Part shown: positions 12,920-27,424 of the stretch, piece by piece
How positions within the stretch are numbered: position 1 is the stretch's first letter
Layout: every line of letters starts with the position of its first letter
DNA from: the human T2T-CHM13v2.0 reference genome, Homo sapiens
Assembly: GCA_009914755.4 (NCBI GenBank)
Contig: CP086569.2
Coordinates: forward strand, 32,896,001 to 32,960,000
Reading direction: 5' to 3'
Length of the DNA stretch: 64,000 nt
The notes under the pieces: generated by a model
Told to the model about the DNA's origin: nothing
Database searches by the model: none
What the model saw: only the letters and a program-made list of their open reading frames with translations
Position numbers and translations under genes: made by a program

Positions 12920-13214
12920 TTTTTTTTTAGACAGAGTCTTGTCGTGTTGCACAGGGTGAAGTACAATGGCGCCATCTTTGCTCACTGCAACATCTGCCTC
13001 ACAGTTCAAAGCGATTGTCCTCCCTCAACCTCTCAGGTAGCTGGGAGTACACCACACTGGGACTACACCAGCTGCCACCATGCCTAGCTAATTTTTTGTA
13101 TTTTTAGTAGTGACAGCGTTTCACTGTATTGGCCAGGATGGTCTTGATCTCTTCACCTTGTGATCCCCTTGCCTTGGCCTCCAAATTTGCTGGGATTACA
13201 GGCCTGAGCCAAGA
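12920..13214 (-). mobile_element. Alu (unit copy), B2 variant with clustered substitutions
   Basis: T9 at 12920-12928. Confidence 0.9.
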
Positions 13215-15337
13215 TCCATATTTTTTAAATGAAAAAAAATTTCAAAGGTACTCTGCTTGGTACAATAATCAAATGTATAAACTGAGGAATAAAACATAAC
13301 CATGAAACCTACTTATAACTGCATATGGAAAATACAGAGGATAATTTTTTAAATAACATATTTTGAAAGCCTTAACTAGTAATTTGAAGAGTTGGCATTT
13401 GAAAGGCCAGTATGAATATACCTTCAAAGCAGCAACACAGGTTCCCCATGAGAAACAGCAAACTCAGGGAAAATAAAACCACAAAGGTTCAAGCTCTTCT
13501 GACCTTTGAAAGACACAGCACAGACAGTGGTCCTTAGGAGGAAGAGCAGGAGACCCCTAATTCCGTCACCATGGCGATAGGGCATAAACATTGCTGGGTG
13601 AGGGCACAATCCACATTGTGAGGTCCAACTGCTGCCAGGAAGACAGGAGTGCTTTTACATAGACCGAAAGGTCATTGAAGGCTCAGAGTTTTGTTTCAAG
13701 AACTGAATCCCAAGCCCACACGTTATTAGGCTGCGCTTCTTAAAACAAGTTATGAGATGGGAAAAAGGGCACCCACAAACATACGTATACATTATGTATA
13801 TAATAATATACAGTATCATATATATAATATATATAACCTATGTATAATATTGTTTTACATCCTGCATCTTATATTATATATATTGTCTAAAATATAATAA
13901 TTGATAATATATAAGTTTTATATTTATACAATATGACATATAGTATATATTATAATTTATGACATATATAATATATGTTATATATCATATATAGAATATA
14001 TTATACGGTTAATATACGTATTAAATATAAATTATACATTATATATATTATATATAATATATCTGTTATATATAATACCTATTATGCATAATATGTATAT
14101 TATGTCTATGTTATATATAGTATAAAACAACATATAATAATATATAATTGTATATATAAAATGCGACATATAATATATATTATATTTTATGACATATGTA
14201 ATATATATTATATATTATATATAATACGTTGTATGTATAATACCTATATTAAATATATATTATATGACTATGTTATTAATTACATGTCACATGTGTTATA
14301 TATTATATATTTTACATAGAATATACCGGTTACATACAATATATACTATGTTACCTATAATGTATAATTGATTACATGTAAAATAAAGAATGCAATATAT
14401 TATGTATAATTTATAATATACAATATGTGGAATGTGATATATATAACATATAATATATGATATATGATATACAGTATATGATATATAACATACAATATAT
14501 GATACCTAGTATATATGGTATACAATATATATTTTATGATATGTATTCTATATGTTTTATATTCTGTTATATATAACTATTTGAAATTATATATAACTGT
14601 ATAATATTTTATGTAAATATGTAATATAATATATATAACTATATAATATATTATATATAACTATATATTATGTTATATATACTTTTATATCATAATTTAC
14701 AGAAAATGTCATAATATAATATATATTATATTATTTCATATTACATAATATATATTACATATCACCCAATATAAGTAACATACATAATATTATAATATAG
14801 ATTATATTATGTTATGTTAAATATCATATATATCATGTATCATATATTCTATAATATATATTATACATTATATAATATGTATGTTGACTATTATGTGATA
14901 TATATAACTATATATTATTATATTATTATACATATAACTAGATAAACATGTAATTCCACATATTTTCATTTATAATATATAGAATTATATAATCATATAT
15001 AATTATTTATATTCTATAAAAAATTATATCATTATATAAATTATAATATAAAAAAATTATAATATGTACTACAAATATATATATTATATATCATATATGA
15101 TATAGTACCTTTGTTATATATCATAATACATATAAATGTGTATTATGTTATCTATAATTATATAATTTCATATATAAGATGTATAATATGTATTATATAT
15201 TGTATATGTTATGTAATATATATAGTATATATAAGATGACACAGGATAAATATTATATACTATGACATATAAAATATATGAGGTTATATGTTACATATAA
15301 GGCATAGCACATAACATGTAATATATATCATATATAA
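12920..15337. repeat. Unit U6 (2418 bp), class B2
   Basis: gtcgtgttgcacagggtgaagtac; cacagttcaaagcg; ctcaacctctcagg; agaaacagcaaactc; ggttcaagctc. U9 shares this set. Confidence 0.85.
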
Positions 15338-15632
15338 TTTTTTTTTAGACAGAGTCTTGTCCTGTTGCACAGGGTGGAGTACAATGGCGCCATCTTTGCT
15401 CACTGCAACATCTGCCTCACGGGTCCAAGCGATTGTCCTCTCTCAGCCTCCCAGGTAGCTGGGACTACACCACACTGGGACTAAACCAGCTGCCACCATG
15501 CCTAGCTAATTTGTTGGATTCTTAGTAGTGACAGCGTTTCACTGTATTGGCCAGGATGGTCTTGATCTCTTCACCTTGTGATCCCCTTGCCTTGGCCTCC
15601 AAATTTGCTGGGATTACAGGCCTGAGCCAAGA
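15338..15632 (-). mobile_element. Alu (unit copy), B-type
   Basis: T9 at 15338-15346. Confidence 0.9.
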
Positions 15633-25005: not shown

Positions 25006-25300
25006 TTTTTTTTTAGACAGAGTCTTGTCGTGTTGCACAGGGTGGAGTGCAATGGCGCCATCTTTGCTCATTGCAACATCTGCCTCACGGGTCTTAGCGA
25101 TCGTCCTCCCTCAGCCTCCCAGGTAGCTGGGACTACACCACACTGGGAGTACACCAGCTGCCACCATGCCTAGCTAATTTTTTGGATTTTTAGTAGTGAC
25201 AGCGTTTCACTGTATTGGCCAGGATGGTCTTGATCTCTTCACCTTGTGATCCCCTTGCCTTGGCCTCCAAATTTGCTGGGATTACAGGCCTGAGCCAAGA
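25006..25300 (-). mobile_element. Alu (unit copy), B3 variant
   Basis: Collinear with the other copies. Confidence 0.9.
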
Positions 25301-27424
25301 TCCATATTTTTTAAATGAAAAAAAATTTCAAAGGTACTCTGCTTGGTACAATAATCAAATGTATAAACTGAGGAATAAAACATAACCATGAAACCTACTT
25401 ATAACTGCATATGGAAAATACAGAGGATAATTTTTTAAATAACATATTTTGAAAGCCTTAACTAGTAATTTGAAGAGTTGGCATTTGAAAAGCCAGTATG
25501 AATATACCTTCAAAGCAGCAACACAGGTTCCCCATGAGAAAAAGCAAACTCAGGGAAAATAAAACCACAAAGGTTCAATCTCTTCTGACCTTTGAAAGAC
25601 ACAGCACTGACAGTGGTCCTTAGGACGAAGAGCAGGAGACCCCTAATTCCGTCACCATGGCGATAGGGCATAAACATTGCTGGGTGAGGGCACAATCCAC
25701 ATTGAGAGGTCCAACTGCTGCCAGGAAGACAGGAGTGCTTTTACATAGACCGAAAGGTCATTGAAGGCTCAGAGTTTTGTTTCAAGAACTGAATCCCAAG
25801 CCCACACGTTATTAGGCTGCGCTTCTTAAAACAAGTTATGAGATGGGAAAAAGGGCACCCACAAACATACGTATACATTATGTATATAATAATATACAGT
25901 ATCATATATATAATATATATAACCTATGTATAATATTGTTTTACATCCTGCATCTTATATTATATATATTGTATAAAATATAAAATTCATAATACATAAC
26001 GTTTATATTTATACAATATGACATATAGTATATATTATAATTTATGACATATATAATATATGTTATATATCATATATAGAATATATTATACGGTTAATAT
26101 ACGTATTAAATATAAATTATACATTATATATATTATATAAAATATATCTGTTATATATAATACCCTTTATGCATAATATATATATTATATCTATGTTATA
26201 TATAGTATAAAACAACATATAATAATATATAATTGTATATATAAAATGCGACATATAATATATATTATATTTTATGACATATGATATATATATTATATAT
26301 TATATATAATACGTTGTATGTATAATACCTATATTAAATATATATTATATGACTATGTTATTAATTACATGTCACATGTGTTATATATTATTTATTTTAC
26401 ATAGAATATACCGGTTACATACAATATATACTATGTTACCTATAATGTATAATTTATTACATGTAAAATAAAGAATGCAATATATTATGTATAATTTATA
26501 ATATACAATATGTGGAATGTGATATATATAACATATAATATATGATATATGATATACAGTATATGATATATAACATACAATATATGATTCCTAATATATA
26601 TGGTATACAATATATATTTTATGATATGTATTCTATATGTTTTATATTCTGTTATATATAACTATTTGAAATTATATATAACTGTATAATATTTTATGTA
26701 AATATGTAATATAATATATATAACTATATAATATATTATATATAACTATATATTATGTTATATATACTTTTATAACATAATTTACATAAAATATCATAAC
26801 ATAATATATATTATATTATTTCATATTACATAATATATATTACATATCACCCAATATAACTAACATACATAATATTATAATATAGATTATATTATGTTAT
26901 ATTAAATATGATATATATCATGTATCATATATTCTATAATATATATTACACATTATATAATATGTATGTTGTCTATTATGTGATATATATAACTATATAT
27001 ATAATTATATTTTTATACATATAACTAGATAAACATGTAATTCTACATATTTTCATTTATAATATGTAGAATTATATAATCATATATAATTATTTATATT
27101 CTATAAAAAATTTTATCATTATATAAATTATAATATATAAAAATTATAATATGTACTACAAATATATATATTATATATCATATATGCTATAGTACCTTTG
27201 TTATATATCATAATACATATAAATGTGTATTATGTTATCTATAATTATATAATTTCATATATAAGTTGTATAATATGTATCATATATTATATATGTTATG
27301 TAATATATATAGTATATATAAGATGACACAGGATAAATATTATATACTATGACATATAAAATATATGAGGTTATATGTTACATATAAGGCATAGCACATA
27401 ACATGTAATATATATCATATATAA
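25006..27424. repeat. Unit U11 (2419 bp), class B3 with an A-type AT tail (B-to-A junction)
   Basis: Alu and body as in U8 (gggtcttagcgatcgtcc, cacattgagagg). The tail carries the A-block variants atatgctatagtacc, aagttgtataatatgtatcat and ataagatgacacagg. Confidence 0.8.

What the first reader, a model, noticed from the sequence alone, without database searches (positions are those of the whole stretch)
12920..27424. Three-unit (~7.25 kb) higher-order repeat structure inside the array
Units spaced three apart share private variant sets that their neighbours lack.
- U6 (12920) and U9 (20170) share gtcgtg, ggtgaagtac, ctcaacctctcagg, aacag[c/g]aaactc and ggttcaagctc.
- The AT blocks of U7 (16200-17757) and U10 (23450-25005) share cataaaatatgtataa, ttttgtgatatataaaactat, ctaggtaaacatg and catttgtaatatat.
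- U8 (17758) and U11 (25006) share gggtct[a/t]agcgatcgtcc, gggagtacacc, cacattgagagg and an AT block with aaaattcataatacataacgtttat.

The offsets are 7250, 7248 and 7248 bp. This points to a recent duplication or unequal exchange of a trimer, that is, an emerging higher-order repeat (HOR). U15-U17 (34678-41934) reproduce a similar B1-B2-B3 order.
Basis: seen in the sequence. Interest (0 to 1): 0.55.

Follow-up and report, generated by a model that had tools for sequence, protein, structure and literature searches.

The report
One old three-unit duplication in DYZ2
The window is a stretch of the well-known human 2.4-kb DYZ2/HSat1B satellite (the Y-chromosome long-arm type), and the "three-unit repeat" is one old local duplication of about 2.5 units, the ordinary product of unequal exchange in such arrays and not a higher-order repeat.

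Summary
The whole 64-kb window is one tandem array: 26 full units plus two partial ones. The window consensus is 2,420 bp. Each unit has an antisense, 5'-truncated, about 17% diverged Alu, about 560 bp of GC-richer sequence and about 1,554 bp of 86% A+T sequence. This matches published DYZ2/HSat1B descriptions feature by feature.

The lag-3 signal is real but local.
- The tract from U6 to column 1185 of U8 (12920-18941) differs from the sequence three units later by 0.98%. At every other lag it differs by 1.7-2.8%.
- The pairs U6/U9, U7/U10 and U8/U11 share 3, 7 and 3 alleles found in no other unit and in no external copy.
- Unit-order permutation gives P of about 0.0009 for this collinear run.

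It is not a higher-order repeat.
- There are only two copies.
- The tract is about 6.0-6.4 kb, not 7.25 kb. The second half of U11 belongs to a different unit type.
- The first halves of U7 and U10 are at background divergence.
- Flanking trimers do not match.
- Mean differences rise with lag (39.8, 45.8, 48.0, 53.5 for lags 1-4).
- Mod-3 phasing across the array is not significant.
- U15-U17 match U5-U7, not U6-U8.

Best reading: one out-of-register exchange, followed by point mutation and gene-conversion patches. This is known biology and of low interest.

The parts
1..64000 (+). DYZ2/HSat1B tandem array: 26 full units (U1 starts at 832, U27 at 63673) plus partial units at both ends. Period 2409-2421 bp, modes 2420, 2419 and 2413. 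The Alu is antisense on the + strand.
   Evidence: Anchor spacing; 20-mer distance spectrum; consensus 2420 bp, GC 24.4%, one CpG per 145 bp. These match the published DYZ2 description.
12920..13225 (-). Alu subunit of example unit U6. It is a 5'-truncated AluY-like element, so its poly-A tail reads as poly-T at the unit start on the + strand.
   Evidence: Local alignment to an AluY consensus recalled from memory covers Alu positions 13-289. Identity is 82.7% over aligned bases, with a 15-bp internal insertion. Sub-threshold Rfam hits to the Alu-derived mir-1268 family.
13226..13785 (+). GC-richer 'HSATI' subunit of U6: 560 bp, 39.8% GC, ending in ACATACG.
   Evidence: Hallast et al. give an HSATI portion of mean 566 bp and the ACATACG junction motif.
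13786..15337 (+). AT-rich subunit of U6: about 1554 bp, 13.6% GC, made of degenerate TA-rich short repeats.
   Evidence: There are many imperfect inverted repeats, but the DNA fold is no better than shuffled sequence, z=-1.19.
12959..18918 (+). Copy 1 of the lag-3 duplication tract, from the first to the last pair-exclusive marker. The outer limits set by the first discordant informative sites are 12614 and 19028.
   Evidence: 0.98% divergence from copy 2, against 1.7-2.8% at other lags.
20209..26166 (+). Copy 2 of the lag-3 duplication tract. Outer limits are 19864 and 26276.
   Evidence: Pair-exclusive alleles: U6/U9 columns 40, 109, 114; U7/U10 columns 1974-2316 (7 sites); U8/U11 columns 89, 97, 979.
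26166..26455 (+). Junction inside U11. To the left the unit is U8-like (A-type). To the right it is canonical B-type, like U12-U13. This cuts the lag-3 tract short of 7.25 kb.
   Evidence: U11 vs U12 show no differences after column 1975. B-type diagnostic alleles start at column 1451.
15513..15709 (+). Patch in U7 (columns 176-372) carrying four alleles shared with U3-5, U15 and U18 but not with its duplicate U10. It is a likely gene-conversion tract laid down after the duplication.
   Evidence: (classification of differences).
54021..63672 (+). Youngest homogenised block, U23-U26. Units are 2413 bp, differ by 5-14 sites, and are related at lag 1.
   Evidence: the longest exact match is 1496 bp at an offset of 2413 bp.

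Best explanation
The window lies inside a human DYZ2/HSat1B satellite array, most likely from Yq12. The lag-3 pattern is the remnant of a single out-of-register exchange that duplicated about three 2.42-kb units. The exchange could have been unequal sister-chromatid exchange or misaligned break repair (inferred). It produced [U6 U7 U8][U9 U10 U11].

The two copies then changed in three ways.
- They accumulated private point mutations, which now account for about 0.7% divergence.
- They received short gene-conversion patches from other units, for example U7 columns 176-372.
- The right end of the tract was lost. Either a later exchange placed canonical B-type units (second half of U11 to first part of U14) next to it, or the second half of U8 was replaced.

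The array as a whole evolves by local homogenisation, with similarity falling with distance, and by occasional multi-unit duplications at various lags. It has no fixed three-unit higher-order period.

Shown here: the identity of the array, the tract, its limits, the exclusivity of the marker alleles, and the absence of array-wide periodicity. Inferred: the molecular mechanism and the order of events.
For: Identity of the array:
- Consensus 2420 bp, GC 24.4%, one CpG per 145 bp, subunits of about 300/560/1554 bp, and ACATACG at the junction.
- Alu 5'-truncated and about 17% diverged.
- Published DYZ2 values: median 2420 bp, Alu 290 bp, HSATI 566 bp, GC 24%, one CpG per 150 bp, ACATACG, AluY about 20% diverged, more than 85% AT.
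- A unit 27-mer occurs in short contigs of 17 unrelated bacterial assemblies and in 42 metagenome contigs. This is the HSat1B contamination pattern reported by Rhie et al..
- 40 external matching segments are 97-99.7% identical to the window consensus.

The duplication:
- 0.98% divergence at lag +3 against 1.7-2.8% at other lags.
- 13 alleles are exclusive to the three collinear pairs and absent from all external copies.
- Permutation P of about 0.0009.
- 44 of the 60 differences between the copies are private to one copy; the rest fall in patches shared with other units.

No higher-order repeat.

The mechanism is plausible from the literature. De novo structural variants of one to two whole DYZ2 units (2,416-4,839 bp) arise about once per Y transmission, and 29% of Yq12 de novo SNVs look like interlocus gene conversion (PMC12240836). 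Rhie et al. describe unequal exchange and sister-chromatid exchange in Yq12.
Against: - The tract is 6.0-6.4 kb, not the 7.25 kb a clean three-unit duplication predicts. At least one further event must be invoked.
- The second half of U8 (columns 1272-2114) matches neither U5 nor U11. It carries the densest cluster of private variants in the window, and I have no explanation for it.
- The first halves of U7 and U10 are at background divergence: 22 differences in 1062 columns.
- Chromosomal origin (Y or an acrocentric short arm) and assembly correctness could not be checked with these tools.
Confidence: 0.85

Rival explanations
1. A true or incipient three-unit higher-order repeat. The array, or a domain larger than this window shows, is organised in trimers, and U6-U11 is just the best-preserved part.
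For: - Pair-exclusive alleles are as frequent at lag 3 (16) as at lag 1 (15) and rare at lag 2 (2).
- A second lag-3 pair, U14/U17, shares 3 private alleles.
- The allele set carried by U2, U8, U11 and U17 sits entirely in one phase modulo 3.
- Exact matches of 500 bp or more are somewhat commoner at lags 3, 6 and 9 than at lags 4, 5, 7 and 8.
Against: - There are only two copies of the trimer, and the flanking trimers are at or above background divergence.
- Mean differences increase steadily with lag.
- The modulo-3 phase test gives p=0.09 including the event and 0.33-0.59 under the other weightings or without it.
- With the three event pairs removed, lag-3 sharing is 0.230, between lag 2 (0.276) and lag 4 (0.158).
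- U15-17 align best in a different register.
Confidence: 0.07
2. No change in copy number. The lag-3 similarity arose from gene conversion between units that happened to lie three apart.
For: Gene conversion is frequent in DYZ1/DYZ2. The similarity is patchy: the first halves of U7 and U10 and the first 180 bp of U6 and U9 are not similar.
Against: - Three consecutive unit pairs share exclusive alleles at exactly the same offset over about 6 kb.
- Independent conversions would not be collinear.
- The patches that break the similarity carry alleles of other units, so they look like later overprints.
Confidence: 0.05
3. An assembly artefact, that is, a false duplication or a mis-join within a highly repetitive array.
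For: Satellite arrays are prone to mis-assembly, and no read data are available here.
Against: The two copies differ at 59 of about 6,020 sites, with private alleles on both copies. A false duplication of the same reads would be near-identical. The offsets are integral numbers of units.
Confidence: 0.03

Closest known systems
DYZ2 / HSat1B satellite of human Yq12 (also present in smaller amounts on acrocentric short arms and chr10)
   Same: Unit length (consensus 2420 bp), tripartite anatomy (5'-truncated diverged AluY, about 560-bp HSATI part, AT-rich block with more than 85% A+T), GC 24%, CpG density, ACATACG junction motif, more than 97% inter-unit identity, and presence as a contaminant in bacterial assemblies.
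   Different: Nothing structural differs. About half of the units here (A-type: U2 to first half of U11, and second part of U14 to U18) are a more diverged variant. They carry alleles otherwise seen in the divergent external class, plus local derived alleles. That fits a peripheral or older part of an array.
Alpha-satellite higher-order repeats
   Same: Neighbouring units differ more from each other than from the unit a fixed number of positions away, within U6-U11.
   Different: Alpha-satellite higher-order repeats have many tandem multimer copies at 95-100% identity, built from monomers only 60-80% alike. Here there are two copies about 99% alike, built from units about 97.8% alike, and there is no array-wide period.
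De novo and polymorphic multi-unit insertions and deletions in Yq12 DYZ2 arrays (Porubsky et al. 2025, PMC12240836; Rhie et al. 2023, Extended Data Fig. 8d)
   Same: Gain of whole units in integral numbers, with later gene conversion between units.
   Different: The reported de novo events span one to two units (2,416-4,839 bp). This one spans about three units and is old, at about 1% divergence.
[quoted passage not shown]
   Same: About 2.4-kb unit on the Y chromosome, with 3-unit patterns reported at 7155 bp.
   Different: A different sequence family: 2385-bp monomers inside the DAZ genes in AZFc, not the 2420-bp Alu/AT-rich DYZ2 unit.

Membership tests
DYZ2 / HSat1B | Tandem unit of about 2.4 kb, median 2,420 bp | tested here: met
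   The consensus of the 26 units is exactly 2420 bp. Periods are 2409-2421 bp, with 2420 the commonest. Published median is 2,420 bp.
DYZ2 / HSat1B | Tripartite unit: 5'-truncated AluY-like element about 20% diverged (about 290 bp), HSATI part (about 566 bp), and an AT-rich block with more than 85% A+T | tested here: met
   The Alu aligns to AluY positions 13-289 at 82.7% identity (the consensus was recalled from memory). The GC-richer part is 560 bp. The AT block is 1554 bp at 86.4% A+T.
DYZ2 / HSat1B | Base composition of about 24% GC and about one CpG per 150 bp | tested here: met
   24.4% GC and one CpG per 145 bp, against the figures in Hallast et al..
DYZ2 / HSat1B | ACATACG at the junction between the HSATI part and the AT-rich block | tested here: met
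   ACATACG lies at consensus positions 860-866, directly before the AT block. It is described.
DYZ2 / HSat1B | Direct sequence identity to the published DYZ2 consensus or to T2T-Y HSat1B | not testable with these tools
   No human reference is available in the collections, and the consensus sequence was not in the supplement held as text. Indirect support: 40 external matching segments at 97-99.7% identity, from contaminant contigs in bacterial assemblies and from metagenome contigs. This is the contamination Rhie et al. ascribe to HSat1B.
DYZ2 / HSat1B | Location in Yq12, in blocks alternating with DYZ1 (HSat3) | not testable with these tools
   The window contains only DYZ2 units and no flanking DYZ1. 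An acrocentric origin is not excluded.
Higher-order repeat (satellite sense) | Many tandem copies of the multimer | tested here: not met
   Two copies only. The trimers on either side differ by 133 and 211 sites per about 7260 columns, against 99 for U6-8 vs U9-11.
Higher-order repeat (satellite sense) | Array-wide excess identity at the multimer lag over shorter lags | tested here: not met
   Mean differences are 39.8 at lag 1, 45.8 at lag 2 and 48.0 at lag 3. The modulo-3 phase test is not significant.
Higher-order repeat (satellite sense) | Multimer copies alike over their whole length | tested here: not met
   Similarity covers 6.0-6.4 of 7.25 kb. It is interrupted in the first halves of U7 and U10 and lost after column 1185-1272 of U8 and U11.
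Tandem segmental duplication by unequal exchange | Collinear tract at a constant offset equal to an integral number of units, marked by derived alleles exclusive to the paired copies | tested here: met
   Offsets are 7250, 7248 and 7248 bp. There are 13 pair-exclusive alleles, absent from external copies. P is about 0.0009.
Tandem segmental duplication by unequal exchange | Tract length equal to the offset | tested here: inconclusive
   The tract is 6.0-6.4 kb against an offset of 7.25 kb. The missing 0.9-1.2 kb coincides with the A-to-B junction in U11 and with the aberrant second half of U8. This is compatible with later overprinting but not proven.

The most novel reading that the evidence does not exclude
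DYZ2 arrays may have a preferred three-unit exchange register, so that U6-U11, the U14/U17 pair and the U2/U8/U11/U17 allele set (all in one phase modulo 3) are traces of a weak, decaying 7.25-kb higher-order period. Such a period has not been described for HSat1B.
Probability: 0.06. Interest if true: 0.4.

Novelty: already known. Interest (0 to 1): 0.12.

Why it matters
It matters little beyond bookkeeping. The window is a textbook piece of DYZ2/HSat1B. The pattern illustrates at single-unit resolution the turnover already documented for Yq12: whole-unit gains by unequal exchange, followed by gene-conversion patching. Its practical use is as a worked example. Locally shared private variants at a fixed lag can look like a higher-order repeat when they only record one duplication. 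Only if a 7.25-kb period recurred across whole DYZ2 blocks would it add something new about how this satellite is homogenised.

Tried and rejected
- Rfam scan of two units. It gave only sub-threshold hits to the Alu-derived mir-1268 family. No 5S or other RNA gene was found, so this is not an rDNA-type repeat.
- Strict identity-by-descent scans. A mismatch penalty of -150 and a limit of 2 differences per 303-bp bin detected only the very young U23-U26 and U3-U4 tracts. The lag-3 tract is too diverged (about 1%) to show at that stringency.
[quoted passage not shown] I considered it and rejected it. It has 2385-bp monomers in contig NT_011903, which I take to be the DAZ 2.4-kb repeat described (my identification; the GRM text does not name DAZ). 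It is not DYZ2.
- Hairpin or cruciform structure in the AT-rich block as a specific breakpoint driver. Many imperfect inverted repeats are present, but the DNA fold energy is no better than dinucleotide shuffles, z=-1.19. Both tract limits fall in the AT block, but that block is 64% of the unit, so this carries no weight.
- Search of the Hallast et al. supplement for the DYZ2 consensus sequence. It is not held as text.
- Long metagenome contig L018, examined as a possible independent array to test for periodicity. Its units are only 70-80% alike, from either long-read error or a very diverged array, and only 13.6 kb is held. It was uninformative.
- External copies as a source for the private variants of the second half of U8. 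Most are not seen elsewhere, so that segment remains unexplained.
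Full report
**What the window is**

The entire 64-kb window is one head-to-tail array with a period of about 2.42 kb. Anchors recur 27 times at spacings of 2409-2421 bp. That gives 26 full units (U1 starts at 832, U27 at 63673) plus partial units at both ends.

The majority consensus of the 26 units is exactly 2420 bp. On the + strand a unit reads as follows.
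- An antisense Alu of about 300 bp. It aligns to AluY positions 13-289, so it is 5'-truncated. Identity is 82.7%, and there is a 15-bp internal insertion (the AluY consensus was recalled from memory).
- A 560-bp part with 39.8% GC, ending in ACATACG.
- A 1554-bp block with 13.6% GC, built of degenerate TA-rich short repeats.

Overall GC is 24.4%, with one CpG per 145 bp.

**Identification as DYZ2/HSat1B**

These features match the published description of the human DYZ2/HSat1B satellite point by point.
- A tripartite repeat of about 2.4-2.5 kb, made of an ancient AluY fragment about 20% diverged, a region with more than 85% A+T, and a more GC-rich HSATI region (Rhie et al.).
- Median unit 2,420 bp, Alu 290 bp, HSATI 566 bp, GC 24%, one CpG per 150 bp, and ACATACG at the HSATI/AT-rich junction (Hallast et al.).

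An invariant 27-mer from the unit occurs in short contigs of 17 taxonomically unrelated 'bacterial' assemblies and in 42 metagenome contigs. Rhie et al. report exactly this contamination pattern for HSat1B.

External matching segments fall into two classes. Forty are 97-99.7% identical to the window consensus and 43 are 85-97% identical.

I could not compare the window directly with a human reference. Placement on Yq12, which holds about 14 Mb of DYZ2, is the likeliest origin. An acrocentric short arm is possible and remains untested.

**The observation**

The 26 units were aligned with MAFFT into 2423 columns, so the alignment is essentially gap-free. Pairwise differences range from 5 to 79 per unit, with a mean of 52.1, or 2.15%.

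Within the claimed region:
- U6-U9 differ at 22 sites and U7-U10 at 28. Lag-1 and lag-2 pairs within U6-U11 differ at 48-56. Both pairs are reciprocal nearest neighbours.
- U8-U11 differ at 49 sites overall, which is not distinctive. There are only 9 differences in columns 1-1185, then 40 in columns 1186-2423.

The tract from U6 column 1 to U8 column 1185 (window 12920-18941) is 0.98% diverged from the sequence three units downstream. At all 16 other lags tested it is 1.69-2.82% diverged.

Alleles carried by exactly two units give the cleanest picture. There are 47 such alleles. U7/U10 share 7, U6/U9 share 3 and U8/U11 share 3. Lag 3 carries 16 of them, lag 1 carries 15 and lag 2 only 2. A collinear run of this strength was reached in 0.085% of 20,000 unit-order permutations.

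None of these pair-exclusive alleles occurs in any of the 83 external matching segments. They are therefore local derived mutations that were copied locally.

- 7 are exclusive to the named pair;
- 2 also occur in U16;
- 3 are more widespread;
- 1 is in U7 only.

**Limits and texture of the tract**

- Left limit. The first pair-exclusive marker is at column 40 of U6/U9 (12959/20209). The nearest discordant informative site to the left is column 2114 of U5/U8 (12613/19863).
- Right limit. The last marker is column 1162 of U8/U11 (18918/26166). The first discordance is at column 1272 (19028/26276).
- Length. The tract is therefore 5.96-6.41 kb, shorter than the 7.25-kb offset.
- Right of the junction. 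U11 switches to a different unit type. It shows no differences from U12 after column 1975 and carries all the 'B-type' alleles from column 1451 on.
- Unevenness inside the tract. U7 and U10 are at background divergence in columns 1-1062 (22 differences) and very close afterwards (6 differences). U6 and U9 have 9 differences in the first 180 bp and 13 in the remaining 2240.
- Nature of the differences. Of the 60 differences between the copies, 44 are alleles private to one copy. This is the signature of post-duplication point mutation. The remaining 16 involve alleles shared with other units and are partly clustered. An example is U7 columns 176-372, which carry alleles of U3-5, U15 and U18. 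This is the signature of later gene conversion.

**Is it a higher-order repeat?**

No, for these reasons.
- There are only two copies.
- Neighbouring trimers do not match. U3-5 vs U6-8 show 133 differences and U9-11 vs U12-14 show 211, against 99 for U6-8 vs U9-11.
- Array-wide mean differences rise monotonically with lag: 39.8, 45.8, 48.0, 53.5 and 56.1 for lags 1-5. This is the pattern of local homogenisation, not of a multimeric period.
- With the three event pairs removed, rare-allele sharing at lag 3 is 0.230. That falls between lag 2 (0.276) and lag 4 (0.158).
- A test for phase modulo 3 gives p=0.09 with the event included, and 0.33-0.59 under the other weightings or with the event pairs dropped.
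- U15-U17 are closest to U5-U7 (108 differences), then U3-5 (111) and U4-6 (116). U6-8 (132) and U9-11 (124) are further. The claimed recurrence of the same B1-B2-B3 order is off register and weak.

Small hints in favour of a three-unit register remain.
- U14/U17 share three private alleles.
- The allele set of U2/U8/U11/U17 lies in one phase.
- Long exact matches are a little commoner at lags 3, 6 and 9.

These hints are not significant. I carry them as the low-probability novel reading.

**Wider structure of the array**

The units fall into two types.
- B-type units are U1, the second half of U11 through the first part of U14, and U19-U26. At 15 of the 16 diagnostic sites tabulated they carry the allele that predominates in the external class of 97% identity or more, that is, the canonical DYZ2 (column 896 is the exception).
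- A-type units are U2 to the first half of U11, and the second part of U14 to U18. At most of those sites they carry the allele that predominates in the divergent external class. They also carry local derived alleles seen nowhere else, at columns 1820, 2287 and 2321.

Mean differences are 43.4 within A, 33.5 within B and 62.1 between them. Homogeneity increases to the right. U23-U26 differ by 5-14 sites, and the longest exact match is 1496 bp at an offset of 2413 bp. This fits the published observation that DYZ2 units are more diverged at the periphery of arrays and of Yq12 than in the middle.

**Mechanism (inferred)**

One out-of-register exchange duplicated three units. It could have been unequal sister-chromatid exchange or misaligned repair of a break. 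The copies then diverged by point mutation and were partly overwritten by conversion. The right end was lost to a further exchange that created the A/B junction in U11.

The literature makes this the expected behaviour.
- De novo structural variants of 2,416-4,839 bp, each affecting whole DYZ2 units, occur about once per Y transmission.
- 29% of Yq12 de novo SNVs have identical matches elsewhere in Yq12 and are attributed to interlocus gene conversion (PMC12240836).
- Rhie et al. report rearrangement patterns consistent with unequal exchange, and sister-chromatid exchanges in about 15% of Strand-seq libraries.

A rough age can be inferred if the array is Y-linked. There are 44 private differences in about 6.0 kb, and the Yq12 rate is 3.86e-7 per bp per generation. 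This gives about 9,500 generations. The duplication is 'recent' only relative to the rest of the array. This is an inference with wide uncertainty.

**Unexplained**

Columns 1272-2114 of U8 (about 19028-19863) match neither U5 nor U11. This segment holds the densest cluster of private variants in the window, most of them absent from external copies.

**Verdict**

The 'emerging higher-order repeat' and 'U15-U17' parts do not. The object is a known satellite behaving as already described, so interest is low.

Noticed in passing
window 832-64000 (unit types; junctions in U2 about 3800-3940, U11 26166-26455, U14 about 32818-33150, and between U18 and U19 about 44347): The units form two haplotype families. 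B-type units (U1, second half of U11 to first part of U14, U19-26) carry, at 15 of 16 diagnostic sites, the alleles of the canonical external DYZ2 copies. A-type units (U2 to first half of U11, second part of U14 to U18) mostly carry the alleles that predominate in the divergent external class, plus local derived alleles. The array is a mosaic of these types.
   Followed up: partly
window U1/U2 (832-5661) and U13/U14 (29838-34677): The switch from B-type to A-type occurs at the same within-unit position (between columns 560 and about 700-896) in U2 and in U14. The two units also share rare alleles at columns 1784, 2034, 2238 and 2266. This suggests an older duplication at a lag of 12 units (about 29 kb).
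   Followed up: partly
window 19028-19863 (U8 columns 1272-2114): This about 0.85-kb AT-rich segment has the densest cluster of private variants in the window. It matches neither U5 nor U11, as a simple three-unit duplication would predict, and most of its alleles are absent from external copies.
   Followed up: partly
window about 33675-33953 (U14) and about 40932-41210 (U17): U14 and U17, a second pair three units apart, share three private alleles in the AT block, at columns 1417, 1519 and 1695. Overall the two units are not close, at 51 differences.
   Followed up: partly
window units U1, U12, U21, U23-U26 (alignment columns 1283-1289): The shorter units (2413 bp in U12 and U23-U26; U1 and U21 carry the same deletion) owe their length to a 7-bp TATATAT deletion inside the AT-rich block. 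All of them keep ACATACG at the HSATI junction. These short units are therefore real length variants, separate from the 7-nt ACATACG bookkeeping issue described by Hallast et al..
   Followed up: no
window 12920-13100 and 20170-20350 (first 180 bp of the Alu in U6 and U9): U6 and U9 show nine differences in 180 bp, nearly all private to one copy, in a pair that is otherwise 0.6% diverged. There may be a local mutation hot spot in the Alu part.
   Followed up: no
window 54021-63672 (U23-U26): Four nearly identical units (5-14 differences) are related at lag 1. U25 and U26 have no private variants. This is the most recently amplified part of the window.
   Followed up: partly
L006 5897-6920 (NZ_HF570958.1, Nostocoides japonicum T1-X7, 5.16-Mb scaffold): A roughly 1-kb human HSat1B fragment (891 bp at 97.6% identity to the window consensus, GC about 0.4) sits between two 100-N gaps in a bacterial scaffold of about 75% GC. 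A contaminant contig has been scaffolded into a bacterial chromosome. Sixteen other bacterial assemblies hold similar short contaminant contigs.
   Followed up: partly
L018 1-13601 (BNJT01002008.1, 54-kb metagenome contig): A run of about six HSat1B-like units only 70-80% identical to one another and 80-92% identical to the window consensus. Two units five apart are 91% alike. This is either uncorrected long-read error or a very diverged HSat1B array.
   Followed up: partly
window 13024-13090 and 15442-15508, minus strand: Sub-threshold Rfam matches to mir-1268 (23-34 bits against a gathering score of 83) lie inside the Alu subunit. They reflect the family's Alu origin and are not a miRNA gene.
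   Followed up: no
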